In this document: positions 2,888-35,751 of the stretch, in pieces
Position numbering within the stretch: position 1 is the stretch's first letter
How the letters are laid out: every line of letters starts with the position of its first letter
Source: a bacterium
GTDB taxonomy: Bacteria; 4484-113; JAFGCY01
Length of the DNA: 64,000 nucleotides
Direction: 5' to 3'
Assembly: GCA_020440605.1 (NCBI GenBank)
Contig: JAGRNT010000003.1
Location: 90,801 to 154,800 of the forward strand
Notes under the pieces: model-generated
What the model was told of the DNA's origin: nothing
The model's input: the letters and a program-made list of their open reading frames with translations, nothing else
Databases searched by the model: none
Program-made: the position numbers and the translations under genes

Positions 2888-3292
2888 TCAAGCCCGCAGA
2901 TCCTCAATCACCCGCAGATAACGCTCATACATTTCGCGCTCGGCAGCGCTGGGCAGATTCAGGCCGTCATCCAGCCGGGCCCGGCAGAGGGCCTGGCATT
3001 CATCGAGGCGACGCTGGGCCAGCAGCTCCTCGACCTGCAGGTCGTAGCGTCCGCGGCTGGCCTGATCCGCCGGATCCTCGTGGCGGGCAGCATGGCGTTC
3101 CTCGAAGCGCGGGCGGTAGAACTCCATGTCGATTTCGTTCTTCTGATCTTCCCAGATCTTTAAACCAATCCCGCCAATGCGACCCATGGCCCAGGCCCCG
3201 AGAGGAATCAGGGCCAGCAGAATCACCACTGCAACAATGGCCTGGCCCAGTCCCAGAGCACTTTCCAGTTCAAGAATGCCCGGCAGGATCAT
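2888..3292 (-). CDS. Small single-TM membrane protein (paralog of 2442-2822)
   Basis: TM segment AIVAVVILLALIPLGAWAM, then YDLQVEELLAQRRLDEC...SAAEREMYERY. Confidence 0.65.
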   Translation of the reverse strand: MILPGILELESALGLGQAIVAVVILLALIPLGAWAMGRIGGIGLKIWEDQKNEIDMEFYRPRFEERHAARHEDPADQASRGRYDLQVEELLAQRRLDECQALCRARLDDGLNLPSAAEREMYERYLRVIEDLRA

Positions 3293-3320
3293 CTGCCTGC
3301 ACCCGCATAATCGTCTCGAT

Positions 3321-3548
3321 TCATTTCTGCACAGGTGGATTGTAGAGACCGGCGTCCTGCATGCGCTTCAGCATCCGCGGCATTTCCAGCTCGTGCATCC
3401 TGTCAATCCAGAGCTTGTAGGCCATCCAGCCCAGCCGAATCAGGCACCAGGCCAGCGGGATGGCGAGGATCTCGAGGATGGCAACGGCAGCTCCCATGGG
3501 AAGGAGCTCCGCGAAGGGTGCCTGGCCTGAGGATGCGCCGGGGTTCAT
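3321..3548 (-). CDS. 75-aa single-TM hypothetical protein
   Basis: One hydrophobic helix. TATAAT lies 6 nt upstream of the ATG (3555-3560, minus strand). Confidence 0.55.
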   Translation of the reverse strand: MNPGASSGQAPFAELLPMGAAVAILEILAIPLAWCLIRLGWMAYKLWIDRMHELEMPRMLKRMQDAGLYNPPVQK

Positions 3549-3565
3549 ATCCGGATTATAGCCGC

Positions 3566-4726
3566 TTAGAGATCATCCGGCAGGCGCCGGTTCAGCTCCG
3601 CATAGATCCCCCGCCAGCGCCTGCCGAAACTGCCGCCGGTGATCAGGCGGCGCAGACGCTTCATCAGGTCGAGGTAGAAGGCCAGGTTGTGCCAGGTCAG
3701 CAGCCGGGCCGCGGAATGCTCACCGGTGCGGATCAGATGGTTCAGGTAGCTGCGGCTGTAGCGCCGGCAGACCATGCAGCGGCATTTCGGGTCGAGCGGC
3801 CGGGGGTCATCACGGAAGCGTGAATTCTTGAGCTGCATCCGCCCCTGGCGCGTATAGGCGGAACCATGGCGGGCCATGCGGGTGGGCTGCACGCAGTCGA
3901 ACATGTCAAAGCCCATCGCCACAGCGAAGACGAGGTCGGCGGGGTCGCCGACGCCCATCAGGTAATGCACGCGCTCCTCAGGCAGGCGCTGCCCGCAGAA
4001 TTCCGTCAGACGCAGGAAGTCTTCGCGCGGCTCGCCGACGGCCAGCCCGCCGACGGCCATGGCCTGCACACCGGAATAAGCAACCAACTGGATGCTTTGT
4101 TCGCGCAGATCCTCTTCCAGGCCGCCCTGGGCAATTCCGAAGAGCACCGGCGGCAGGGCTGCCGGCAGGGCCGATCGTTCGACCAGCTCCGGCCAGATCC
4201 GCACCTGCTCCGCCAGCCAGTCGTGGGTGAAGCGCATGTCCTTGATCACGCGCCTGCGCTCCGCCGGCAGGCCGGTGCAGACGTCGATCGGCATTGCGAA
4301 ATCCACGCCGAAGTTGAGCTGGGAGCGCAGGGTGAATTCCGGGCTGAACAGATGCCGGCCGCCATGCAGATGATCCGTGAATTCCACACCATCCGGTTTA
4401 AGCGAGCGGCGCGCCGCCAGTGAGAATGCCTGGTAGCCGCCGCTGTCAGTCAGCACACTGCCCCGCCAGCCGCTCCAGGCCTTGACGCCCCCATGCCGGC
4501 GGATCAGTTCGCTGCCGGGATCAACCACCAGGTGATAGGTGTTCATCAGCACATGCGCATAGCCGATCTTCTCTAGATCCGCCCAGTCAAGGGTCTTCAG
4601 CGAGGCGGAGGTTGCAACAGGCTGGAACAGTGGCGTGGGCAGCCTGTTGCCACTGCGATCCGTCAGCCAGCCGGCCCGGGCCAGCGAACCAGGATCACGC
4701 TGCTCCAGCTCAAAGGGATTGCGCAT
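3566..4726 (-). CDS. tgt: Queuine tRNA-ribosyltransferase (tRNA-guanine transglycosylase)
   Basis: LMNTYHL, LTDSGGYQAFSL, FGIAQGG, AVGGLAVGE, YLMGVG, DMFDCVQPTRMARHG, zinc site CRCMVC...WHN. Confidence 0.95.
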   Translation of the reverse strand: MRNPFELEQRDPGSLARAGWLTDRSGNRLPTPLFQPVATSASLKTLDWADLEKIGYAHVLMNTYHLVVDPGSELIRRHGGVKAWSGWRGSVLTDSGGYQAFSLAARRSLKPDGVEFTDHLHGGRHLFSPEFTLRSQLNFGVDFAMPIDVCTGLPAERRRVIKDMRFTHDWLAEQVRIWPELVERSALPAALPPVLFGIAQGGLEEDLREQSIQLVAYSGVQAMAVGGLAVGEPREDFLRLTEFCGQRLPEERVHYLMGVGDPADLVFAVAMGFDMFDCVQPTRMARHGSAYTRQGRMQLKNSRFRDDPRPLDPKCRCMVCRRYSRSYLNHLIRTGEHSAARLLTWHNLAFYLDLMKRLRRLITGGSFGRRWRGIYAELNRRLPDDL

Positions 4727-4912
4727 CGGGATATGTTAGCGCCGGACAGACCTTTGACGCGTCGTCAAGATACCTAAAGCCTTGCCTTCTCAAGAAGGAT
4801 TCGATTGAATATGGATGCAGGGATTTCGTGTATTTAAGAAGATTATCTGAGCACAGTAGACTCATTTATTCAGAAAATTCATGAAAAAATTGCTGCATAT
4901 CAAACATTTCCG

Positions 4913-4940
4913 TTGACTGCACGGTAGCAACCGGTATAAT
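4913..4940 (+). promoter_or_regulatory. Sigma70/SigA-type promoter of groESL
   Basis: TTGACT (4913-4918), 16-nt spacer, TATAAT (4935-4940), directly upstream of the CIRCE element. Confidence 0.8.
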
Positions 4941-4948
4941 TCCGCAGC

Positions 4949-4975
4949 TTAGCACTCTCCATGCGGGAGTGCCAG
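4949..4975 (+). promoter_or_regulatory. CIRCE element (HrcA operator)
   Basis: TTAGCACTC-N9-GAGTGCCAG versus consensus TTAGCACTC-N9-GAGTGCTAA, upstream of groES. Confidence 0.92.
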
Positions 4976-5090
4976 CAGCGGAAAAACAGGGCTGCCAGAA
5001 GTGCTTTCCGGCAGCAGGGGCAACACCAGCACTATCCTGCTGGTTTTTGCACGTCACAACTAACAGTATTGATACTGGAGGACATAAAGA

Positions 5091-5396
5091 ATGGGAAAGG
5101 CCAGCAGCAAGTTCGCCTACACTCCGGCTCCCGGCCGGCTGATCGTCAAGTCGCTTGAGCAGGCTGAGCGCACCGACAGTGGTCTCTACCTGCCCGAGAC
5201 CGCCAAGGAGCGTCCGCAGCTCGCCGAGGTCGTCGCCTACACCCCCTCCCGCAATGACGAGGGCAAGTCCAATGAGGCGCTGGTCTCCGTCGGCGACACC
5301 ATCTTCCACAGCAAGTACGGCGGCACCGAGGTCAAGATCGACGGCGCCGACTTCCTGATCCTGCGCGAGGATGACGTCCTCGCCGTCAAGAACTAA
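5091..5396 (+). CDS. groES: Co-chaperonin GroES
   Basis: [53 protein letters not shown]; directly upstream of groEL. Confidence 0.96.
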
Positions 5397-5454
5397 GCAC
5401 GAATCATCACCTGCTGCCGGCAGTGCCGGTGGCTCAGCTACATAAGAGGAGTAG

Positions 5455-7133
<1,679 letters not shown>

Positions 7134-26736: not shown

Positions 26737-29700
26737 ATGAAGCGCTGGCTTTCCCTGTTCATGATCTTGGCAGTCACCTGCCAGCTTGCTGGCTGCTCCG
26801 GTGGTCAGCACAGCGAGCTGCCGGTAGCGGTGCCGGACCTGCAGCAGCAGGCGGCAGGTTTTCCCGCTGGTCTGCCTGAGGACAGGCTGCAGCCATGGGA
26901 ACAGCTTGATGATAATGGCAATGTGATTGCCGTCGCAAGATCCAGCAGTGCCATCAACCGGGACAGTGAGCTCATCGCGGGTGTGGAACGCTTCAGCTCC
27001 TCGGGTAATGTTAGTGACAACGGAGAGGCCAGCCGCATCATCAGCGCCAGCGGCAGTTCTGCGCATGCCCTGTACCGTATCCCACTGGCAGGCGGACAGC
27101 CAGGTGCAGTCAGTGTTGATGCGAACCTGATTGCCGGCAAGGGGTATTTCATCGGTATCGCCGATTATGCGAGTGGACGCTGGCAGTGGCATGGCCCCTT
27201 CACTGACAACCACATCAGGCTCAGCACTGCAGCTTCCGGCCCGCTGGCCAGCCCGCTTGGCAACCTCTTCGTTTCCGTACTGGTACATGATGGAGCTGCA
27301 CTGGACTGCGTCGGTATCGGCTGGAATCCGATGGATCCGCTGGACGTCTCAGCTCCTGCCACTCCGCAGAATGCGGCACTCACGGCACTCGCCGGCGGCA
27401 TCAGGCTGAGCTTTGAGACAGTGCCGGACCCGCAGCTGGCCGGTTACGGAATCTACTACAGCAGGAATTCCTTCATCAACGGCAATGCCGCCGGTGTCAG
27501 GCAGCTTGGATACCTCGAAGGCAGTACCGAACACTTCCTGCCCGCTGCTCCGGGAGAGGAGCTGTACGTGAGGGTCAGTGCCATCGACTTCTCCGGCAAT
27601 CAATCGGCACTCAGTCAGATAGTCAGCGCGACTGCTCTGGAAGGCGGGGTCCCGGACCTGACGGTTACCCTGGACAAACCCAGTGCCATGCTGCAGGAGT
27701 CAGTCAACCTGCAGGCGACTGGAGCGGACAGCTACGACTTCGATCTGGACGGCGATGGCAGCTTTGAGATCCTTGGCAGCAGCAGCGGCAGCATCGCAGT
27801 GGCAACGGACAGGCTGGGAATCATCAGGCCGGCAGTGCGTGGGCATGGCGTGGATGCCAGTGCGGTGGCCCTTGGCAGCGTCAGCCTGCTGATCAGTGGT
27901 AACAACCGGCCCGTGGCAGAGGCAATGGCCAGCCCGGCGACGGGCACTGCCCCGCTGGATGTGACATTCAGCGGCACCGCCAGCACGGACTTCGATGGCA
28001 CGATAGTCGGCGGTGGCTGGGACTTCGATGGTGATGGTACCTATGACGTCTGGGACGACACTGACATAGTGCATGTCACTTCCGCAAACCACACCTATGC
28101 CGCGCCTGGCCTCTACAACGCCCGGCTCAGGGTTGTGGATGATGGCGGGGCCTGGGACGTTGACACCCTCGCGATCCTCGTCAGCTCGCCGGCGGATCCG
28201 GACAACATAGCTCCTACGGCCGACCTGCAGGCCGATCTGAGCAGTGGCGATGCCCCTCTGAGTGTCAGCTTCAATGCCTCCGGCAGCAGTGATCCGGACG
28301 GAAGCATTGTGGAGTACGCCTGGGACTGGGACGGCGACGGTCTCTATGACGCCATCGGCGAGGCTGGCAGTGCGATGCACGTATATGCCGGGCCGGGCAT
28401 ATTCAATGCGACCCTGCGGGTCGAGGACAACCATGGTGCGCGGGACACGGCGAGCATTGAGATCAATGTCAACGTGGCAGGCAATGAACTGCCCAGTGCC
28501 TCCCTGTCCGTTGACAATGAACTGCCTCAGGCGGGGAACATGGTCCGTCTTGACGCATCAGCCTCACTGGATCCTGACGGCAGTATTGCCAGGTATGAGT
28601 GGGACTTCGACGGTGATGGCAACTGGGACGCGAACGGCAGCAGTCCTTCCGCCACGCACACTTTCCTGGCCCGGGCATCCTACAGGGTCCGGCTCCGGGT
28701 GACGGACGACATGGGCGCACAGGCCGAGACAGGGAAAGTGATCAAGGTCTCGCTCGGTCCCTGGTCGCTGCCTGGCTATGACACGATGAACAACCGGCAG
28801 AGTCCCAATCTCGGGGCGCAGACATCGGCCATCAGGTGGTCATACTTGACTCCGAATGTTGTCAGTGGTGAACTGGCGGTGACTCCCGAGGGTACGATCT
28901 ACGCCGGATGCTGGAACGGCAAGCTGTACGCCCTGAATCATGATGGATTCCTTCAGTGGACATACACGAGCGCAGAGGCGATAACTGCGGGAATTGCCCT
29001 TGGGTCGGACGGAACGCTGTACTTCGGCAGTGATGACAACTTCCTGCACGCGGTCCTGCCTGACGGCAGGCGGAAGTGGAGGTTTGCCACGGGGGACGAT
29101 GTCAGGAGTTCACCGACAATCGCGGCGGACGGGACCGTGCTGTTCGGAAGTCTTGACAACAAGTTCTACGCTGTCAATCCGGATGGCACCCTGAAGTGGA
29201 GCTTCACCGCCGGCAACGACATCCTCGGACCCGCTGCCGCAATTGATCCTGACGGCTTGATCTACTTCTGCAGTGACGGGGGCAGCCTGTATGTGCTTGA
29301 TCCGGATGGCAGCCTGGCATGGCAGTACGATCCTCCTTCCGGAGTCAGAGGTGCGCCGGCTATCGACGGCAATGGAATCGTCTATGTCGCCAATGCTGGC
29401 AACCTGCGCGCACTCAATCCCGGGGGCTCGGAACACTGGACATATCAATTGCCATCCGGCGGGTCATACAGCCCATCGATTGCCGCGGATGGAACCATCA
29501 TCTTCGGTTCGAGCTCAGGGATTGTCTATGCGCTGCACCCGGATGGCACCATGAAGTGGCAGTTTCCCATGCTCCAGAGCGCAAGCTCGACACCCGTCAT
29601 CGGTTCAGATGGAACCGTCTACATCGGATCGGCTGACCAGAACATGTATGCGATTGACCAGGATGGTTCCCTCAAATGGAAAATCACCGGTGGTTTTGCA

Positions 29701-29787
29701 TTTCCGGCCGGTGCTGCGGTGATCGGAGCTGATGGCGTCACGTATTTCGGACAGCATGAACATGAGATCTTCGCTGTCGGAAACTGA
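26737..29787 (+). CDS. Large lipoprotein: conserved N module, FN3, three PKD domains, PQQ/BamB-like propeller
   Basis: MKRWLSLF...QLAGC with GAGGTG SD; GRWQWHGPFTD; three WDFDGDG/WDWDGDG PKD motifs; repeated DGTLKW...SSP...DGT+Y units. Confidence 0.88.
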   Translation: MKRWLSLFMILAVTCQLAGCSGGQHSELPVAVPDLQQQAAGFPAGLPEDRLQPWEQLDDNGNVIAVARSSSAINRDSELIAGVERFSSSGNVSDNGEASRIISASGSSAHALYRIPLAGGQPGAVSVDANLIAGKGYFIGIADYASGRWQWHGPFTDNHIRLSTAASGPLASPLGNLFVSVLVHDGAALDCVGIGWNPMDPLDVSAPATPQNAALTALAGGIRLSFETVPDPQLAGYGIYYSRNSFINGNAAGVRQLGYLEGSTEHFLPAAPGEELYVRVSAIDFSGNQSALSQIVSATALEGGVPDLTVTLDKPSAMLQESVNLQATGADSYDFDLDGDGSFEILGSSSGSIAVATDRLGIIRPAVRGHGVDASAVALGSVSLLISGNNRPVAEAMASPATGTAPLDVTFSGTASTDFDGTIVGGGWDFDGDGTYDVWDDTDIVHVTSANHTYAAPGLYNARLRVVDDGGAWDVDTLAILVSSPADPDNIAPTADLQADLSSGDAPLSVSFNASGSSDPDGSIVEYAWDWDGDGLYDAIGEAGSAMHVYAGPGIFNATLRVEDNHGARDTASIEINVNVAGNELPSASLSVDNELPQAGNMVRLDASASLDPDGSIARYEWDFDGDGNWDANGSSPSATHTFLARASYRVRLRVTDDMGAQAETGKVIKVSLGPWSLPGYDTMNNRQSPNLGAQTSAIRWSYLTPNVVSGELAVTPEGTIYAGCWNGKLYALNHDGFLQWTYTSAEAITAGIALGSDGTLYFGSDDNFLHAVLPDGRRKWRFATGDDVRSSPTIAADGTVLFGSLDNKFYAVNPDGTLKWSFTAGNDILGPAAAIDPDGLIYFCSDGGSLYVLDPDGSLAWQYDPPSGVRGAPAIDGNGIVYVANAGNLRALNPGGSEHWTYQLPSGGSYSPSIAADGTIIFGSSSGIVYALHPDGTMKWQFPMLQSASSTPVIGSDGTVYIGSADQNMYAIDQDGSLKWKITGGFAFPAGAAVIGADGVTYFGQHEHEIFAVGN

Positions 29788-29792
29788 TGGAT

Positions 29793-29931
29793 CTAGACCC
29801 GCTCCCGCTTGATTCCGGCAACATGCGTGAAGGCCGCCTCGAGGTCGCGCAGGATGTCATTCGTCTCCTCGAGTCCGCAACTCAGGCGGATTCCGCCAGG
29901 CTCCACGCCGCCTTCGGCCTGCATCTCCGGG
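29793..29931 (-). pseudogene. Displaced duplicate of the last 45 codons and stop of the methionine gamma-lyase gene
   Basis: Gap-free alignment to 32714-32852 (offset 2921). 29817-29931 has 3 mismatches in 115 bp. Translates PEMQAEGG...DLEAAFTHVAGIKRERV*. Confidence 0.9.
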
Positions 29932-30002
29932 AAGATCCACTACTCGATCAATTTGATAGTCGATTGCTCTGGCAATGGACTCGCTGTTTTGCTAGGATAA
30001 TC

Positions 30003-30095
30003 CTGAAGGCTCAGCGGAGACTTACTTCCAATCGGTAAATCAGTTTCCGCGATTTCCTTCAGCTGGACTGACCGGGTTCCACCCGGTCGGTCCGG
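30003..30095 (+). ncRNA. Putative structured RNA upstream of the RING/ROT/TerD gene
   Basis: CTGAAGG(30003-09) pairs with CCTTCAG(30056-62); GCGGAGAC(30014-21) pairs with GTTTCCGC(30043-50); 12-bp hairpin 30065-30093; extended -10 TGcTAGGAT at 29990-29998. Confidence 0.5.
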
Positions 30096-30109
30096 AACCA
30101 GGACCAGAC

Positions 30110-32707
30110 ATGAAACGGGACAGCATCGCGGCGTTACTACTGAGAACCAGACAGCTCATCTACCCCGAGGCTGGAGGAACCAGTGGGCATCCGGAGCTCG
30201 TGGATGCGCTGGAGCTGAATCTCAGTACCCTGGGCTATGCCTTGCATACCCGGCTGCGCTCGAGGATCTCCACCCTTGACCGGCAATCCCTTGCGGCCCT
30301 GCATGATTTCATGATGTCCGAGTTGCGCAGCAGGAGTGGGGCGGATGTGCAGCACAAGGTACTGTTCCGCAGATTCCCGCAGGGTGTTCCAACGAACATG
30401 CTGGCCGCCTTATGGAAGCGCCTGCTGTTCCACTTCATCGAAAATCCCTGCCAGCAATGTCCCTTCTGTGGATCTGCCGGAACCACGCATGTCCTGAACC
30501 CCTGCCGGCATGTGGTTTGCAGCGTCTGCTTCGATGGCGGGAACTACGGCGCCTGTCCTGTCTGCGAGACGCATGTTGACATGAACTCACCGTTCTTTCT
30601 GGCAGTGCCAGCCGATCTGCGTGACCTGCCGGAGGAGCAGGTCGCCTTCAAGCTGATCCAGCTGGGCACTGACATTGACGACGATGCAAGAATGCTGTTC
30701 TCCCAGTTTTGTTCAAGGCGGACACCGCTGTCGGAATCCGACCGGCTGGATCTCAGGACTCTGACGGCATATTTCGGGGAAGACTGTCCTGCGTTGCTGC
30801 CTGATGAATTCCCCCTGCGCGAGAACATGGCGATCGTTGTCGGCACCCTCCTGCGGATGCTGGACAGTGAGGACGCAAGATCGAAGTTGACAGCCTGCAT
30901 GCGTAGCGCAACTGATGTACTGCGGGTGATTGCCGTATATTCCGGCGCTGATGCGAGTCTTGAACGGACGACCGTAACGCGTCAGGCAGTTCCCGGAAAC
31001 TCCGCAGGCAGACAGCAAGGCCTGCTTCAGAAGCTGCTCTCCACCGCCCGGACAACGCCTCCCCGTGCGCTCAACATGCGCATTGCCCGTTTCGAAGTGG
31101 CTGGCCTGCCGAGAAAACTGCGAAGGCTGTTCCTGGCAAGGCTCGAGTCCATGGACCCTGAGTCAATCCGGGAGGACATGCTCCGCCACCGCAGCTACTG
31201 GGTCTGGCTGGGGGAATTCCTGCATCCCGGCGAGTATGCCGGACGATACCCGCAGACATACGAAGCCTTCCGGTTGGTGCGCAAGCGTGACAGCACAGGT
31301 GCGGTGGTTGCGCGGCACCGCAGCTTCAGGAGCAGGCTGGAATCCGCTTTTGATCACAGTTCAGCGCGGGGAGCGCTGGAGATCCTGAAACGCCGTCCAG
31401 GGGAGTTTGCCAGGCATTATGCCAGGCTGCTGGCACTGTGTGGTGACGACGGAGAGCAGCTGGCGGTTGCCATCGGGGAATTCAGAGCAGCGCTGCCGGA
31501 AATGGCAACGCCTGTGCTGCTGACCCTGCTGGGATACCTGCCTGTCAGGCTTCGCACGGATGTTCCCCGCCTGTTCCATCCCAAGGCGAACCTCAGTGTG
31601 GCATTTTTCCAGCCAGAACATCGCGCCGCCCTGCCTGCGGAATCCGTGCGGCAGTCCGTTGAGGCAATTCGGCTGGAACTCCTGGGTCGACTCGGGCACA
31701 GCTCCACACACGATACTGTCCTGATTGACGACGCCATGACTGACATCATCATGCCGACAAGCGAACGCAGTCACAGTTCGTCAGGCATCAACCTGCCCCG
31801 CGGTTCAAGCCTGCAGCTAGATTCCGGCAGGTGGCTGCGCCTGTTCCTGCACTGGTGCGAGCCACAGGCTACTCCCGAGCGCCGTCAGACGCGCACGGAC
31901 CTGGACCTGTCCGTTGGCTTCTACAACGAATATTGGTCTCCGGTGGGGGTCTGCTCCTATTACAACCTCAGTCTGGGATTGCACAATGGCCTGCCGCTTG
32001 CCCGCAGCAGCGGTGATCTGCAGTCCGCGAACTGGCCGGATGGATCAACGGAATTCGTGGATGTGGACCTGGAGAATGCCAGGCAATGTGGCTGGCGCTA
32101 TGCCGTGATGGTCATCAACAGTTATGCTGGCCTGCCGTTCACCGAGCTTGAGCGGGCATTTGCCGGGTTCATGCTCCGGAATGACGAATTCGGCAGCCAC
32201 TTTGATCCGCGGACTGTTGTCAGCAGATTCAGTCTGGATGGCTCCAATGGAATGTTCATGCCCCTCCTGCTTGATCTGACCAGGATGCGCATGCTCTGGA
32301 TGGATACATATTCCAGGGGACAGTTAGCCTTCAACAATGTGGCGAACTCCAACAAGGCAATCACGGCGATCTGCCCGGCATTCCAGGAGTATTACGGCAG
32401 CGGTCTGCGCTGCAGTGTGCGGGATCTGATGCTGATTCGGGCTGCAGCTGCCCGGCGCGTCATTCTGCGGGGCAGCTCGATCAGAGTCATTGACCGGCAT
32501 GCGGGGGAGGCACCGGCAGAATTCCTGCAGCGGTTGATCGCTGAGGAAGGAGCAAGGACAGTGGCTGAGCTCGAACCGGAACTGCAGGGCAATATCCTGG
32601 CAACACTGCTGCACGGGGACCTGGAGCTGCCTGCAGGCAGCAGCAGCTATAGCCTGTACCCGGGAAGCCTGGCGGCCAATGTTTCCCTGGCGGACCTGAT
32701 CAGCTGA
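30110..32707 (+). CDS. MXAN_6230/SCO0854-like protein: prokaryotic RING finger, ROT/TROVE-like helical repeats, TerD-like domain
   Basis: CPFC...LNPCRHVVCSVC...CPVC RING; SATDVLRVIA; EDMLRHRSYWVWLGEFLHPGEY; RPGEFAR; LFLHWCEP...TDLDLSV...SGDLQSA...EFVDVDL...MVINSYAG. Confidence 0.85.
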   Translation: MKRDSIAALLLRTRQLIYPEAGGTSGHPELVDALELNLSTLGYALHTRLRSRISTLDRQSLAALHDFMMSELRSRSGADVQHKVLFRRFPQGVPTNMLAALWKRLLFHFIENPCQQCPFCGSAGTTHVLNPCRHVVCSVCFDGGNYGACPVCETHVDMNSPFFLAVPADLRDLPEEQVAFKLIQLGTDIDDDARMLFSQFCSRRTPLSESDRLDLRTLTAYFGEDCPALLPDEFPLRENMAIVVGTLLRMLDSEDARSKLTACMRSATDVLRVIAVYSGADASLERTTVTRQAVPGNSAGRQQGLLQKLLSTARTTPPRALNMRIARFEVAGLPRKLRRLFLARLESMDPESIREDMLRHRSYWVWLGEFLHPGEYAGRYPQTYEAFRLVRKRDSTGAVVARHRSFRSRLESAFDHSSARGALEILKRRPGEFARHYARLLALCGDDGEQLAVAIGEFRAALPEMATPVLLTLLGYLPVRLRTDVPRLFHPKANLSVAFFQPEHRAALPAESVRQSVEAIRLELLGRLGHSSTHDTVLIDDAMTDIIMPTSERSHSSSGINLPRGSSLQLDSGRWLRLFLHWCEPQATPERRQTRTDLDLSVGFYNEYWSPVGVCSYYNLSLGLHNGLPLARSSGDLQSANWPDGSTEFVDVDLENARQCGWRYAVMVINSYAGLPFTELERAFAGFMLRNDEFGSHFDPRTVVSRFSLDGSNGMFMPLLLDLTRMRMLWMDTYSRGQLAFNNVANSNKAITAICPAFQEYYGSGLRCSVRDLMLIRAAAARRVILRGSSIRVIDRHAGEAPAEFLQRLIAEEGARTVAELEPELQGNILATLLHGDLELPAGSSSYSLYPGSLAANVSLADLIS

Positions 32708-32713
32708 ATGGAC

Positions 32714-34126
32714 TCAGACCGTCTCGCGGCGCAGGCTGGCAACATGCGCGAAGGCCGCCTCGAGGTCGCGCAGGATGTCATTCGTCTCCTCGAGTCCGCA
32801 GCTCAGGCGGATCCCGCCAGGCTCCACGCCGCCTTCGGCCTGCATCTCCGGGTCCAGCGCGCTGTGTGTCATTGACGAGGGGTTCTCGATCAGGGTCTTG
32901 ACCTGTCCGAGCGAGACCGCCAGCGTGATCACGTAGCTGTTGTCAGCGACGAAGTCGATGAAGGCCTCGGCGTTCGCATTGCTGCCCGGCTCCTCCTTCA
33001 GCGTGAAGTAGAGCAGGCTGCCGGGCATGAAGGCCCCGTCGAAGTTCGTCATCTGGCGGCGCGCGACCTCGTGGTCAGGGTTGTCAGCCAGGCCCGGGTA
33101 GCGCACGCGGGAAACCAGCGGGTGCCCGCTGAGATACTCCGCCACTTTCTGCGCGTTGTACTGCATCTGGCGCATGCGCACCGGCAGGGTCGGCAGGCCG
33201 TAGACCAGCGGCGGCCAGGCGGCCTTGGGGCTGAGGCTGCCGCCGAAGTCCTTGCGGTAGAGCTTGTAGATGGGCTCCAGTTCAAGCGGGCAGATCACCA
33301 TCCCGCCCATGTCGGTGCCGAAGCCGCCGATGCCCTTGGTCAGGGAATGCACGACGACGTCGATGCCGTGCTCGCGCGGACGCTGGCAGACGGGTGTGGA
33401 GAAGGTGTTGTCACAGATCGAGTAGATGCGCTCCTCGGGGGGCCGGCGGCGGTTGACACTGTCCAGCACGTCGCTCAGGCGGCGCAGGTCGATGATCTCG
33501 AGCGTGGGGTTGACCGGGGTCTCGAGGTAGACCACGCGGGTCTCGGGGCGGATCGCGGCGGCCAGCTCATCCGGGTTGTCAGCGTCGATGAAGGTCACGT
33601 TGATCCCGAGCCGCGGATACCAGTTCTTCAGCAGCGAGGCAGTGCAGCCATAGAGACACTTGTGCGCAATCACATGCTGGCCGGTGGTGACAAGCGAGGT
33701 GATCGCGGCTGAGATCGCCGCCATTCCGGTGGAGAAGCTGATGCCGACCGCGGCACGCTCGGCCTCGGCCAGGCGGTCCTCCAGCATCGAACTCGTGGGC
33801 TCCTGCAGGCGGTCGTAGATCAGGATCTCCTGCTCCACCTCCTCCGTCGTGCCGAACTGGCAGAAGCCCTGGGCCCCGCGCTGGCCGCTGTCGAGGCGGT
33901 AGGTGGCGGAAGCGCTCATCGGCGGGACGACGTGGTGGCTGTAGTCCCAGTGCGGGCTGACCATTTCTCCGTGGATGAAGCGCGAGCGCTGGGCATAGCC
34001 GTGGCTGAAGCCCAGGTCATGCAGCGGTCCAGGCCGCGAGGGGGCATGGCCGCCGTTGCCGGCACTGCCGGCGGGAGGCATGTGGCTGTCGTCGGAACCG
34101 GACATCCCGGTGTCATCCTTGCTCAT
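32714..34126 (-). CDS. megL: Methionine gamma-lyase (PLP-dependent trans-sulfuration family)
   Basis: VVPPMSASATY, STGMAAI, LYGCT (Tyr-Gly-Cys typical of MGL), LETPVNPT, DNTFSTP, HSLTKGIGG (PLP Lys), SLG, IRLSCGLE. Start placed at MSKDDTG, uncertain. Confidence 0.82.
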   Translation of the reverse strand: MSKDDTGMSGSDDSHMPPAGSAGNGGHAPSRPGPLHDLGFSHGYAQRSRFIHGEMVSPHWDYSHHVVPPMSASATYRLDSGQRGAQGFCQFGTTEEVEQEILIYDRLQEPTSSMLEDRLAEAERAAVGISFSTGMAAISAAITSLVTTGQHVIAHKCLYGCTASLLKNWYPRLGINVTFIDADNPDELAAAIRPETRVVYLETPVNPTLEIIDLRRLSDVLDSVNRRRPPEERIYSICDNTFSTPVCQRPREHGIDVVVHSLTKGIGGFGTDMGGMVICPLELEPIYKLYRKDFGGSLSPKAAWPPLVYGLPTLPVRMRQMQYNAQKVAEYLSGHPLVSRVRYPGLADNPDHEVARRQMTNFDGAFMPGSLLYFTLKEEPGSNANAEAFIDFVADNSYVITLAVSLGQVKTLIENPSSMTHSALDPEMQAEGGVEPGGIRLSCGLEETNDILRDLEAAFAHVASLRRETV

Positions 34127-34289
34127 GGGGAACCCCGATATGAGATTGCGCGTCGTTAGCAGTGTAGCAGAATGAGGGAACGGTGGGCAGGAAGCATGCG
34201 TGATGCCACCCATCTTCCTCTGTATGAGAGAGCAGTGCTATCCTTGCATTCTGAAGAAATGATTCGCATCAAGGCGGAGCTGGCTGGAT

Positions 34290-34703
34290 ATGACTGACTG
34301 GGAAATGAAACATCTGCTGGACATCGGTACTCACTGTGAAATCTGTGCCATTCGCTTCAGTGATGACATTGTCACAATGGAGCTTATTGGGCCAAGATAT
34401 GGAGAAGAATGTCCTTTCACGATCAAGCTCATGGGAGTCAGCAAAGCTGATTTTCGCCAGGAAGTATTCATGTGCATGGGCGGAGATCCGGAGATAGCGG
34501 ATTCACGGCTGGTTAGGAATGGAGAAAAGTGGCTTTGGGAAGTATTGCTAGATGATTCCACTCTTGGTGCCAGGGTGGAATTCACTTCGTACTGGACAGA
34601 CAGGAACTGGCCGATTGGCATCAATCAGTCCATGGGCTATGACCCCGACTCAGGCACTGTTGCAAAAGCTGAGTTTCCCCGGAGGGGCTGCCTGGGTTTC
34701 TGA
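34290..34703 (+). CDS. Hypothetical protein, lower GC than neighbours
   Basis: 137-aa ORF between two minus-strand genes; no recognised motif. Confidence 0.55.
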   Translation: MTDWEMKHLLDIGTHCEICAIRFSDDIVTMELIGPRYGEECPFTIKLMGVSKADFRQEVFMCMGGDPEIADSRLVRNGEKWLWEVLLDDSTLGARVEFTSYWTDRNWPIGINQSMGYDPDSGTVAKAEFPRRGCLGF

Positions 34704-34755
34704 ATTCCCCTCGGGCTGGAATTCGGAACTTGATTGCGCGCCAATAGCATGGTTG

Positions 34756-35751
34756 TCATTCACCATCTATCAGATACTCATTCCCCACCCAGGCCCGCAG
34801 TTCATCGCGCATGCTGCCGCGGATCCGCTCCAGCAGGTCCTTGCCATGTTCAAGGAAATGCTCCTTGTCATCCTCGTTGACATACTCGGGCAGGAAATCC
34901 GGCTTCAGCAGGCGCTGGCCGCGTTCCAGCAGGATCCGTGAGCCGCTGGCCGGGGCCGGCGGCGTCAGCAGATAGGCCTGGAATTCATTGATCATCAGGG
35001 TCTCGAAGGCCGGGTCGTAATTGAGGCTGGCCAGCAGCGTGGAGAACGCCCGCCGCTCATCAGCGCTCAGCTGCTGTTGCCAGAATTCGCGGCAGCGCTG
35101 TTCATACTCCGGCTCGGTGAAGAAGATCCCATGCAGCATCTCGTGATAGAGCGCACCGCGTTCATAGCTGCGGTCAGTGCGGCCCTGCATCCCGTGGCGG
35201 GATTCACGCAGGGCCAGGCGCGAGGCAAAGGAAATCACGGCCTGCTCCCCTGTGGCATGGTACAGCTCATGCTGATGGAAACCCAGGCCCGGATCGCAGT
35301 AACACAGGGTATAGTCCAGCAGTCCAAGCTCAAGCAGACCATTGAACAGCTCCAGCTCCTCCGGATACCATTCCTGGCCGCTCTTCTGCAACTCCGAGAA
35401 GAAGCGGGCCATGTCCTGTGTGTCGTAGTCATGCGCGCCGAACAGGCCTTCGAGCGTCACACCCTGATCGCTGAACCAGGCTTCAAGTTCCACCTGTGAC
35501 ATGATCCGTCCGCGCGACTCAGCCATCTCCTGGAAGAGTGCCATGCGCGAAAGCGCACGGCTCTGGTAGAGGTAGCTGTCAAAGTGGATCACATAGACAT
35601 CCGGATGCTGCTCCCAGCGGTAGAGCGTGAAGGAATCTCGCGGGGCTTCGGAGCCGAGGATCTCAGCGAAGTCCGCCATGGGCACCGCCTGTGCCGGTCC
35701 GGCTGCCAGCAGCAGGCAGAGACTCAGAAAGATTATGGCAGCGAGGCGCAT
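34756..35751 (-). CDS. Secreted protein, possible zincin-like HExxH
   Basis: Signal peptide ending AQA; ALYHEMLHGIFF...INEFQAY; TGcTATGCT 6 nt upstream of the ATG. Confidence 0.7.
   Translation of the reverse strand: MRLAAIIFLSLCLLLAAGPAQAVPMADFAEILGSEAPRDSFTLYRWEQHPDVYVIHFDSYLYQSRALSRMALFQEMAESRGRIMSQVELEAWFSDQGVTLEGLFGAHDYDTQDMARFFSELQKSGQEWYPEELELFNGLLELGLLDYTLCYCDPGLGFHQHELYHATGEQAVISFASRLALRESRHGMQGRTDRSYERGALYHEMLHGIFFTEPEYEQRCREFWQQQLSADERRAFSTLLASLNYDPAFETLMINEFQAYLLTPPAPASGSRILLERGQRLLKPDFLPEYVNEDDKEHFLEHGKDLLERIRGSMRDELRAWVGNEYLIDGE

What the first reader, a model, noticed from the sequence alone, without database searches (positions are those of the whole stretch)
29990..30109. 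Candidate Y-RNA-like ncRNA heading the RING/ROT-TROVE-like/TerD gene
Seen: extended -10 TGcTAGGAT, then a nested helix (7-bp outer stem, CUCA/GAUUU internal loop, 8-bp inner stem, loop starting UUACUUC), then a 12-bp hairpin without a U-tract 16 nt before the ATG. Known: the Prok-RING_4 architecture (RING, ROT/TROVE-like repeats, TerD) has been proposed to act in RNA processing, and true TROVE/Ro60 proteins bind Y RNAs encoded beside their genes. Inference: this RNA is the ligand of the downstream protein or a cis-regulatory leader, and travels with it on the insertion.
Basis: partly seen in the sequence, partly recalled or inferred. Interest (0 to 1): 0.72.

Follow-up and report, generated by a model that had tools for sequence, protein, structure and literature searches.

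The report
Partner RNA of RING-TerD protein gene
The folded RNA in front of this RING/TerD gene is real: it belongs to a strongly conserved RNA family absent from Rfam that sits beside this protein family in every bacterium examined and in three large viral contigs, so it is most likely the protein's own RNA partner, much as Y RNAs partner Ro60.

Summary
Window 30003-30063 (+) folds as described, followed by a 15-bp hairpin (30063-95), an AGGA ribosome-binding site and the ATG at 30110 (MFE z = -5.4).

The same 61-position motif (GGCU.AG, a covarying 9-bp stem, a CUUCCUUCU loop start, then UUUCC) lies beside the MXAN_6230/SCO0854 RING gene in 74 of 74 homolog loci with enough flank, always on the gene strand. 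In 95 distinct copies, 94.7% of pair positions are paired and 12 of 16 pairs show compensatory changes.

- **Specificity:** 20 whole genomes hold it only at that gene. In 151 Myxococcota genomes, strong hits occur in exactly the 3 genomes with a full family member.
- **Not catalogued:** Rfam 15 has no match.
- **Not a plain 5' leader:** two Obscuribacterales MAGs carry 7 and 14 tandem copies downstream of the gene. Large viral contigs carry tandem copies before or after RING-less homologs. One relative has a YrlA-like tRNA mimic inserted in the loop.
- **Mobility:** a same-genus genome shows the empty site, so promoter, RNA and gene arrived together on a 2.8-kb insertion.

Best reading: a dedicated partner RNA, functionally Y-RNA-like but not a Y RNA homolog.

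The parts
29817..29931 (-). Left copy of the 115-bp direct repeat. It is the displaced native 3' end of the Cys/Met PLP-enzyme gene; the orphan reading frame runs on to its stop near 29793.
   Evidence: about 97% identical to 32738-32852; contiguous with the gene body in same-genus genome G003.
29932..32737 (+). Inserted 2.8-kb module: promoter, RNA motif, hairpin 2 and the RING gene. It also supplies a replacement end (SLRRETV*) for the PLP gene.
   Evidence: absent from G003 (locus L127), which joins window 29931 directly to 32738-type sequence; the RING gene is absent from 4 same-genus and 5 same-family genomes.
29990..29998 (+). Extended -10 promoter element TGcTAGGAT. The predicted transcription start is near 30004-30006, at the foot of the outer stem.
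   Evidence: Sequence. Homologs have a TTGAC-like -35 and a TAnnnT -10 ending 4-9 nt before the motif. The strict consensus scan did not call a promoter here.
30003..30063 (+). The conserved RNA motif ('handle'). Outer stem 30003-09/30056-62; internal loop CUCA / GAUUU; inner stem 30014-22/30042-50; 19-nt G-poor loop starting UACUUCC.
   Evidence: Covariance model R1 scores it 62.9 bits, E 4e-14. Fold. Covariation across 65 and 95 distinct copies.
30063..30095 (+). Hairpin 2: 15 bp with a UCC loop and no U-tract, abutting the motif. Probably marks the 3' boundary of the RNA, as a processing or attenuation site.
   Evidence: -28 kcal/mol. 40 of 71 homologs have a strong hairpin at this position, 12 of 40 with a U-tract. 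19 of 40 share a CGGA/UCCG helix core; the window has UGGA/UCCG.
30100..30103 (+). Shine-Dalgarno-like AGGA, 6 nt before the ATG.
   Evidence: Sequence.
30110..32707 (+). Gene for an 865-aa MXAN_6230/SCO0854-family protein: N-terminal helices, C3HC4 RING, Arg-rich helical domain, TerD-type beta-sandwich, C-terminal alpha/beta domain.
   Evidence: NCBIfam NF041916 at 781 bits against a cut-off of 600. Pfam Prok-RING_4. AF2 model with pLDDT 89.9. Foldseek finds TerD structures 2qng and 2qz7.
32738..32852 (-). Right copy of the 115-bp direct repeat, lying inside the intact PLP-enzyme gene (32714-34213).

Best explanation
Window 30003-30063 encodes a member of a conserved structured RNA family that Rfam does not hold. 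I propose it is the dedicated RNA partner of the RING / helical / TerD protein family.

**Shown**
- The RNA has two coaxial helices. The outer one has the core GAAGG/CCUUC. The inner one is 9 bp and covaries freely.
- The helices are separated by a conserved internal loop (CU.A / G.UUU).
- They are closed by a G-poor loop that always starts (C)UUCCUUCU.
- In this window the RNA follows its own extended -10 promoter. It abuts a 15-bp hairpin, and the RING gene follows.
- The whole unit entered this genome as one 2.8-kb insertion.

**Inferred**
- The RNA begins at or next to the transcription start.
- The conserved 'handle' (GGCU.AG, UUCCUUCU, UUUCC) is the binding site of the encoded protein. 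The RNA, either as part of the mRNA or cut or terminated at hairpin 2, forms a ribonucleoprotein with it.
- The variable loop is a slot for accessory modules. It is empty here. A relative has a YrlA-like tRNA mimic there.
- Functionally this parallels Ro60 with its adjacent Y RNA. Because the RNA heads the protein's own mRNA here, binding would also give feedback on expression.
For: 1. **Real fold.** z = -5.37.
2. **Family-wide conservation.** The 120 nt upstream of 75 homolog genes have a mean fold z of -2.5, and the same motif is visible in them.
3. **Covariation.**
   - With 65 distinct copies, 94.6% of cells are paired and the inner stem is 98.8% paired.
   - 10 of 16 pairs show compensatory changes.
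   - The covariation score is 0.426 against 0.163 shuffled (0 of 500 shuffles reach it) and at most 0.166 when partners are slid.
   - With 95 copies, 12 of 16 pairs are compensatory and the score is 0.595 against 0.164.
   - G-U pairs are common, for example 32 G-U against 24 G-C at one pair.
   - All 96 hits lie on the gene's strand. Together these point to structure in RNA, not DNA.
4. **Co-occurrence.**
   - 74 of 79 loci have the motif. The other 5 are cut at or near the gene's 5' end. For one of them the motif sits at the end of another contig of the same genome.
   - 20 whole genomes of 5-16 Mb have it only at the RING locus.
   - In 151 Myxococcota genomes, strong RNA hits occur in G065, G130 and G191. 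These are exactly the three genomes with a full NF041916 member, and the RNA lies 35-51 nt upstream on the same strand.
5. **Position independence.**
   - 7 and 14 tandem copies start about 20 nt after the stop codon in loci L072 and L074.
   - 2-3 tandem copies lie upstream in L085, L086 and L061.
   - Viral contigs of 242-461 kb carry tandem copies downstream (L144) or upstream (L137) of RING-less homologs (E 1e-47 and 9e-52).
6. **A partner, not a neighbourhood effect.** No protein-coding neighbour is conserved.
7. **Promoter placement.** -35 and -10 boxes end just before the motif in most lineages.
8. **Y-RNA-like module.** A relative's copy holds an 81-nt loop insertion with a tRNA T-arm. 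It matches Rfam YrlA at 24.4 bits, E 0.004.
9. **Protein features.** 15 of about 81 invariant columns are Arg, mostly in the helical domain.
10. **Mobility as a unit.**
Against: - No direct evidence of transcription, processing or protein binding.
- In 31 of 71 loci the motif ends only 5-30 nt from the start codon, usually with no Shine-Dalgarno sequence. In these it is certainly part of the 5' UTR and could act purely in cis.
- The protein shows no detectable RNA-binding domain by sequence. Pfam finds only the RING. The profile comparison with TROVE is negative. Foldseek against the PDB finds only TerD.
- Four of five sub-threshold relatives examined in Myxococcota showed no motif in the 650-800 nt fetched, and neither did a distant 733-aa relative in G032.
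- The window copy departs from the consensus loop at two positions: UUACUUCC instead of UUCCUUCU.
Confidence: 0.62

Rival explanations
1. A purely cis-acting 5' leader, either a riboswitch or an attenuator. The motif would sense a metabolite, an ion or a general factor. It would control the RING gene through the downstream terminator-like hairpin or by occluding the start region. The encoded protein would not bind it.
For: - It lies at the 5' end of the transcript in most loci.
- Two kinds of 'expression platform' follow it, as with riboswitches. 40 of 71 loci have a strong hairpin, 12 of 40 with a U-tract. 31 of 71 have the start codon 5-30 nt from the 3' arm.
- The conserved unpaired nucleotides could form a ligand pocket.
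Against: - Arrays of 7-14 copies lie downstream of the gene in L072 and L074, and copies lie downstream of the phage homolog in L144. These cannot regulate from a 3' position.
- The motif is found with no other gene family in 20 whole genomes or in the 151 Myxococcota genomes. Riboswitch classes normally serve several gene families.
- The variable loop accepts an 81-nt tRNA-like insertion.
- No overlap between the 3' arm and an anti-terminator is evident.
Confidence: 0.12
2. An RNA antitoxin or inhibitor in a two-part conflict module, like a type III toxin-antitoxin system. The RNA would be made in excess by termination or processing at hairpin 2 and would hold the RING/TerD protein inactive. 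Loss of the RNA during phage infection or stress would release the protein.
For: - The layout promoter - RNA (1-3 copies) - terminator/hairpin - protein gene matches type III systems (established knowledge of ToxIN).
- The module is self-contained, patchily distributed and horizontally moved.
- Phages carry homologs with their own RNAs.
- TerD domains occur in Ter stress and phage-resistance systems (PMC7824862).
Against: - Most loci have a single copy, not a repeat array.
- No nuclease or other toxin domain is recognisable, and there is no PADLOC hit.
- 31 of 71 loci have no hairpin between the RNA and the gene.
- The tRNA-mimic insertion fits an RNA-handling particle better.
Confidence: 0.15
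3. A chance hairpin, a transcription terminator of the neighbouring gene, or a dispersed repeat element with no specific function.
For: GC-rich intergenic DNA often folds well, and hairpin 2 alone looks terminator-like.
Against: - z = -5.4.
- Single copy in its own genome.
- 62.9 bits to a model built from other phyla.
- Covariation and exclusive gene association.
- It lies inside the inserted module, not at the end of a native gene.
Confidence: 0.01

Closest known systems
Ro60 (Rsr, TROVE) with Y RNAs, especially bacterial YrlA (Rfam RF02553)
   Same: - A small structured RNA is encoded next to the gene of a large helical-repeat protein. It is often present in several copies, in bacteria and phages.
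- The RNA has a closing double helix with a conserved internal loop, plus a pyrimidine-rich, G-poor loop.
- In a relative, the loop carries a YrlA-like tRNA mimic.
   Different: - No Rfam Y RNA family matches the handle.
- The conserved handle sequence (GGCU.AG ... CUUCCUUCU ... UUUCC) differs from the Ro-binding helix.
- The protein has RING and TerD domains, and no vWA domain was detected.
- The protein is not detectably TROVE by Pfam or hhalign.
- True TROVE genes sit elsewhere in 7 of 21 of the same genomes.
- The window copy has no tRNA-like module.
Type III toxin-antitoxin systems (ToxIN-like)
   Same: The order promoter, structured RNA, terminator-like hairpin, protein gene. Tandem RNA copies in some loci. 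A mobile, self-contained two-part module.
   Different: Usually one RNA copy. The RNA may lie downstream of the gene. The protein is 865 aa with RING and TerD domains, has no recognisable endoribonuclease fold, and gives no PADLOC match.
Autoregulatory mRNA leaders bound by their own gene product (ribosomal-protein leaders)
   Same: A conserved structured 5' leader specific to one gene family. It ends next to the start codon in 31 of 71 loci.
   Different: Tandem arrays, 3' locations, phage copies on either side of the gene, and a loop that accepts large insertions.
Riboswitches with terminator or RBS expression platforms
   Same: Conserved unpaired nucleotides framed by covarying helices. The downstream context is either terminator-like or RBS-proximal.
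   Different: Restricted to one protein family, not restricted to 5' UTRs, with no identifiable switching helix.

Membership tests
Conserved 'GGCU / CUUCCUUCU handle' RNA family defined here (model R1) | Two nested helices (16 pairs) with the conserved internal loop and loop start | tested here: met
   The window copy scores 62.9 bits, E 4e-14, with the full model matched at positions 1-61. All 16 pairs can form. The loop reads UUACUUCC against the consensus UUCCUUCU. The A variant also occurs in L072 and L074.
Conserved 'GGCU / CUUCCUUCU handle' RNA family defined here (model R1) | Lies beside a RING/helical/TerD family gene, on the same strand | tested here: met
   The motif ends 46 nt upstream of the NF041916 gene at 30110.
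Y RNA / YrlA (Rfam) | Match to an Rfam Y RNA covariance model | tested here: not met
   No Y RNA family appears at E<=10 in window 28500-31500, in L021 or in L072. Only the loop insertion of a relative (L164) matches YrlA, below threshold at 24.4 bits against a gathering score of 69.
Y RNA / YrlA (Rfam) | Partner protein is Ro60 (TROVE + vWA) | tested here: inconclusive
   Pfam TROVE gives no hit at E<=10. A six-frame TROVE search hits other loci only. hhalign gives probability 0.2%. Foldseek against the PDB shows no Ro60 in the top 50. Foldseek against BFVD hits a phage 'TROVE domain-containing protein' at E 5.9e-4, prob 1.0, TM 0.35.
Y RNA / YrlA (Rfam) | tRNA-like module | tested here: not met
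   ARAGORN finds nothing in window 28000-34500. The window loop is only 19 nt.
Riboswitch / cis-regulatory 5' leader | Always in the 5' UTR of the regulated gene | tested here: not met
   Arrays lie downstream of the gene in L072 and L074, and copies lie downstream in phage locus L144.
Riboswitch / cis-regulatory 5' leader | Ligand-dependent alternative pairing with an expression platform | not testable with these tools
   No mutually exclusive helix was evident by inspection. In-line probing or reporter assays are needed.
Type III toxin-antitoxin | Tandem RNA repeats before an endoribonuclease toxin gene | tested here: not met
   The window and most loci have a single copy. The protein has no nuclease or PADLOC match.
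Intrinsic terminator (hairpin 2 of the window) | GC-rich stem followed by a U-tract | tested here: not met
   The stem is followed by AACCAGGAC, with 0 T in 8. The terminator scan finds none.
MXAN_6230/SCO0854 RING domain protein (NCBIfam NF041916), for the downstream gene | Score above the curated equivalog cut-off over the full length | tested here: met
   780.8 bits against a cut-off of 600, residues 7-857. The RING Cys/His ligands are invariant in 120 homologs and present here.

The most novel reading that the evidence does not exclude
The handle RNA and the RING/helical/TerD protein form a second class of Y-RNA-type ribonucleoprotein, independent of Ro60 and shared by bacteria of many phyla and by jumbo phages. 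The conserved handle would dock the protein. The variable loop would present interchangeable modules, from nothing (as here) to a tRNA mimic. The RING domain (in the bacterial form) and the TerD domain would couple RNA recognition to a signalling or modification step in RNA surveillance or phage-host conflict.
Probability: 0.3. Interest if true: 0.9.

Novelty: new variant of a known kind. Interest (0 to 1): 0.78.

Why it matters
The MXAN_6230/SCO0854 RING/TerD proteins are widespread and have no known function. A structured RNA that co-occurs with them in every locus examined gives the first concrete handle on what they do. It is the only conserved neighbour, it moves with the gene in horizontal transfer, and it also sits beside homologs on large viral contigs.

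If the protein binds this RNA, that would add a new ribonucleoprotein class beside Ro60/Y RNA. It would give Rfam a new family with clear covariation. It would also link a prokaryotic RING finger and a TerD domain to RNA biology.

The module is only 2.8 kb and self-contained, so it can be moved into a laboratory strain and tested directly.

Tried and rejected
- **Rfam 15:** nothing relevant in the window, in 17 homolog loci at gathering thresholds, or in permissive mode on a consensus-like copy and on an array.
- **Dispersed repeat in the own genome:** rejected. There is one copy only.
- **Literature:** searches for Prok-RING, MXAN_6230, SCO0854, TROVE with TerD, and Y RNA with TerD found no description of this RNA. 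The Burroughs & Aravind RNA-repair paper was not held.
- **TROVE homology of the protein:** negative by Pfam, by a PDB profile search, by Foldseek against the PDB and by hhalign. Only a marginal BFVD hit exists.
- **Defence-system models:** PADLOC gives no hit.
- **Conserved protein neighbours:** none.
- **Second hit in Nannocystis punicea (L120, 38 bits):** on inspection it is a GC-rich hairpin without the conserved loop, between unrelated genes. Treated as a false positive.
- **Distant 733-aa relative in G032:** no motif. Four sub-threshold Myxococcota relatives also showed none in the fetched flanks.
- **Pseudoknot between the loop CCUUC and the 5' arm GAAGG:** topologically possible but untestable, because the loop never varies. 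Not adopted.
- **Split or sequestered Shine-Dalgarno role for the 5' arm:** the spacing is too long. Not adopted.

Full report
**1. The observation**

- An extended -10 (TGcTAGGAT, 29990-98).
- A nested helix. The outer stem is 30003-09 with 30056-62. The internal loop is CUCA/GAUUU. The inner stem is 30014-22 with 30042-50. The 19-nt loop is UACUUCCAAUCGGUAAAUC.
- A second hairpin, 30063-77 with 30081-95. It has 15 bp rather than 12, and no U-tract.
- AGGA at 30100-03 and the ATG at 30110.

RNAfold gives -54.6 kcal/mol, z = -5.37, and none of 200 dinucleotide shuffles folds as well. The element is single-copy in its genome.

**2. The gene and the insertion**
- The downstream ORF (30110-32707, 865 aa) is a full-length MXAN_6230/SCO0854 RING protein. 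It scores 781 bits on NCBIfam NF041916 against a cut-off of 600 and matches Pfam Prok-RING_4.
- An AF2 model built on 120 homologs is confident (pLDDT 89.9). Foldseek against the PDB recognises only the TerD sandwich (2qng, 2qz7).
- The gene is absent from 60 related genomes, including 4 of the same genus.
- Same-genus genome G003 shows the empty site. Window 27800-29931 and 32738-34193 are contiguous there and share one copy of a 115-bp segment that is duplicated in the window.
- So 29932-32737 is a 2.8-kb insertion. It carries the promoter, RNA, hairpin, RING gene and a replacement end for the PLP-enzyme gene.
- The insert's base composition does not stand out.

**3. Conservation of the RNA**

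I fetched 79 homolog loci (39-46% protein identity) from Myxococcota, Oxalobacteraceae, Acidobacteriota, Planctomycetota, Verrucomicrobiota, Hyphomicrobiaceae and Obscuribacterales.
- The 120 nt before the start codons are unusually structured. Mean z is -2.5, and 51 of 75 fall below -2.
- They visibly share one motif: (G)GAAGG CU.AG, a 9-bp stem, CUUCCUUCU, a variable G-poor stretch, AG, the returning stem, G.UUU, CCUUC.
- On 65 distinct copies, 94.6% of cells pair and the inner stem is 98.8% paired. 10 of 16 pairs show compensatory changes. The covariation score is 0.426 against 0.163 for shuffles (0 of 500 reach it) and at most 0.166 for slid partners.
- The collecting pattern constrained only part of the outer stem. 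The inner stem was unconstrained.
- Covariance model R1 finds 96 hits in the window and these loci, all on the gene strand. 74 of the 79 homolog loci are hit.
- The five loci without a hit are cut at or near the gene's 5' end. For one of them the motif lies at the end of another contig of the same genome.
- With array and phage copies added (95 distinct), 12 of 16 pairs are compensatory and the score is 0.595 against 0.164.
- Frequent G-U pairs and the strict strand bias indicate an RNA structure.

**4. Specificity**
- In 20 whole genomes that carry the gene (5-16 Mb), R1 hits only the RING locus. The one stray hit is a false positive on inspection.
- I also searched 151 evenly drawn Myxococcota genomes with the RNA alone, then with the protein family alone.
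  - Strong RNA hits fall in exactly the three genomes that have a full family member, 35-51 nt upstream on the same strand.
  - One weak hit precedes a sub-threshold 759-aa relative.
- No protein-coding neighbour is conserved.

**5. Anatomy around the motif**
- sigma-70-type -35 and -10 boxes end 4-9 nt before the motif in most lineages. The motif is therefore the 5' end of the transcript.
- Two contexts follow the motif.
  - In 31 of 71 loci the start codon is 5-30 nt away, across a CU-rich spacer that mostly lacks a Shine-Dalgarno sequence.
  - In 40 of 71 loci a strong hairpin abuts the motif. 12 of 40 have a clear U-tract and 5 a weak one. A Shine-Dalgarno sequence usually follows.
- The window belongs to the second class, without a U-tract.
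- About half of these hairpins share a CGGA/UCCG core. The window has UGGA/UCCG.

**6. Why it is more than a 5' leader**
- Two Obscuribacterales loci have no copy upstream. Instead they carry 7 (L072) and 14 (L074) tandem copies starting about 20 nt after the stop codon, with covarying outer stems.
- L085, L086 and L061 have 2-3 tandem copies upstream.
- A pattern scan of viral contigs followed by R1 finds tandem copies on contigs of 242-461 kb. They lie next to RING-less homologs of the protein (773 and 723 aa, 22-25% identity over about 770 residues, E 1e-47 and 9e-52). The copies are downstream in L144 and upstream in L137.
- Foldseek against BFVD also finds full-length phage homologs (E 8e-31 to 8e-22).
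- In G161, the first of two upstream copies has an 81-nt insertion in the variable loop. It contains a tRNA T-arm (GCAGGUUCGAUUCCUGC) and matches Rfam YrlA (Y RNA-like) at 24.4 bits, E 0.004, below the gathering score.
- A conserved docking handle with an exchangeable module is the plan of bacterial Y RNAs.

**7. What it is not**
- **Not a known RNA family.** Rfam 15 has nothing for the handle.
- **Not shown to pair with a TROVE protein.**
  - Pfam finds only the RING.
  - The TROVE model hits other genes in 7 of 21 of these genomes, never the RING gene.
  - hhalign against those TROVE proteins gives probability 0.2%.
  - The one positive sign is a Foldseek match to a phage protein annotated as TROVE (E 5.9e-4, TM 0.35).
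  - I therefore treat 'TROVE-like' as unproven.
- **No match to known defence systems.** PADLOC gives no hit.

**8. Mechanism**

*Shown:*
- a conserved, covarying RNA;
- its position right after a promoter;
- exclusive pairing with this protein family, whatever the position;
- joint horizontal transfer.

*Inferred:*
- The protein binds the conserved handle and forms a ribonucleoprotein.
- In the window, the RNA heads the protein's own mRNA. Hairpin 2 most likely marks where the RNA is separated or attenuated. Binding would then also feed back on expression.

The many invariant arginines in the helical domain fit RNA binding but do not prove it. My confidence in the partner-RNA reading is about 0.6. 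A type III TA-like inhibitor role (0.15) is a special case of it. A pure cis-regulator stands at about 0.12.

**9. Novelty and limits**
- I found no published description in the held library, and Rfam lacks the family.
- Earlier notes of this same scan report the same 'UUCCUUCUA hairpin' with helical/TerD proteins in other genomes. I re-derived its main claims independently, but those notes are not independent evidence.

Noticed in passing
window 29790-29931 and 32714-32852: The insertion has no integrase. It is bounded by a 115-bp direct repeat of the PLP-enzyme gene's 3' end. The two copies differ only in the last codons (AGIKRERV* in the orphan, native copy; ASLRRETV* in the attached copy). 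This looks like one homologous crossover plus one illegitimate join (homology-facilitated illegitimate recombination), not site-specific integration.
   Followed up: partly
window 34194-34757: A second difference from same-genus genome G003. About 560 bp present in the window, including ORF 34290-34703 (137 aa), are absent from G003.
   Followed up: no
window 30063-30095; hairpins after the motif in L014, L029, L031, L033, L038, L042, L063, L073, L088 and others: The hairpin that follows the motif varies in sequence, but in 19 of 40 distinct cases its stem contains a CGGA/UCCG core (UGGA/UCCG in the window). This holds in both AT-richer Oxalobacteraceae and GC-rich Myxococcota. It may be a second recognition or processing element rather than a plain terminator. 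No background control was run.
   Followed up: partly
L015, L036, L039, L053, L058, L062 (Duganella group); L070, L071, L045, L013 and others: In the 'short' class the start codon lies 5-25 nt after the motif, across a CU-rich spacer with no Shine-Dalgarno sequence (26 of 31). How these genes are translated is unexplained. The only SD-like sequence is the paired 5' arm (GGAGG/GAAGG) of the outer stem.
   Followed up: no
L052:383-2959 and 2974-5565: Massilia rubra has an 858-aa ORF directly in front of its RING-family homolog, possibly a second copy of the gene (not checked). A single motif lies upstream of the 858-aa ORF (268-327).
   Followed up: no
L074:3197-4867: The 14-copy array in one Obscuribacterales MAG has a higher-order period of 497 nt. 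For example, copies start at 3647, 4144 and 4641, and at 3917 and 4414. This points to recent tandem amplification of a block of about five copies.
   Followed up: no
L023:2838-2970: Between the motif and the RING gene of a Nannocystaceae MAG lies a run of about 8 tandem CCCGTAGA octamers.
   Followed up: no
The genome search control genomes: The NF041916 protein model gives a sub-threshold hit in Deinococcus radiodurans, the classic Ro60/Y RNA organism. I could not see which gene it hits.
   Followed up: no
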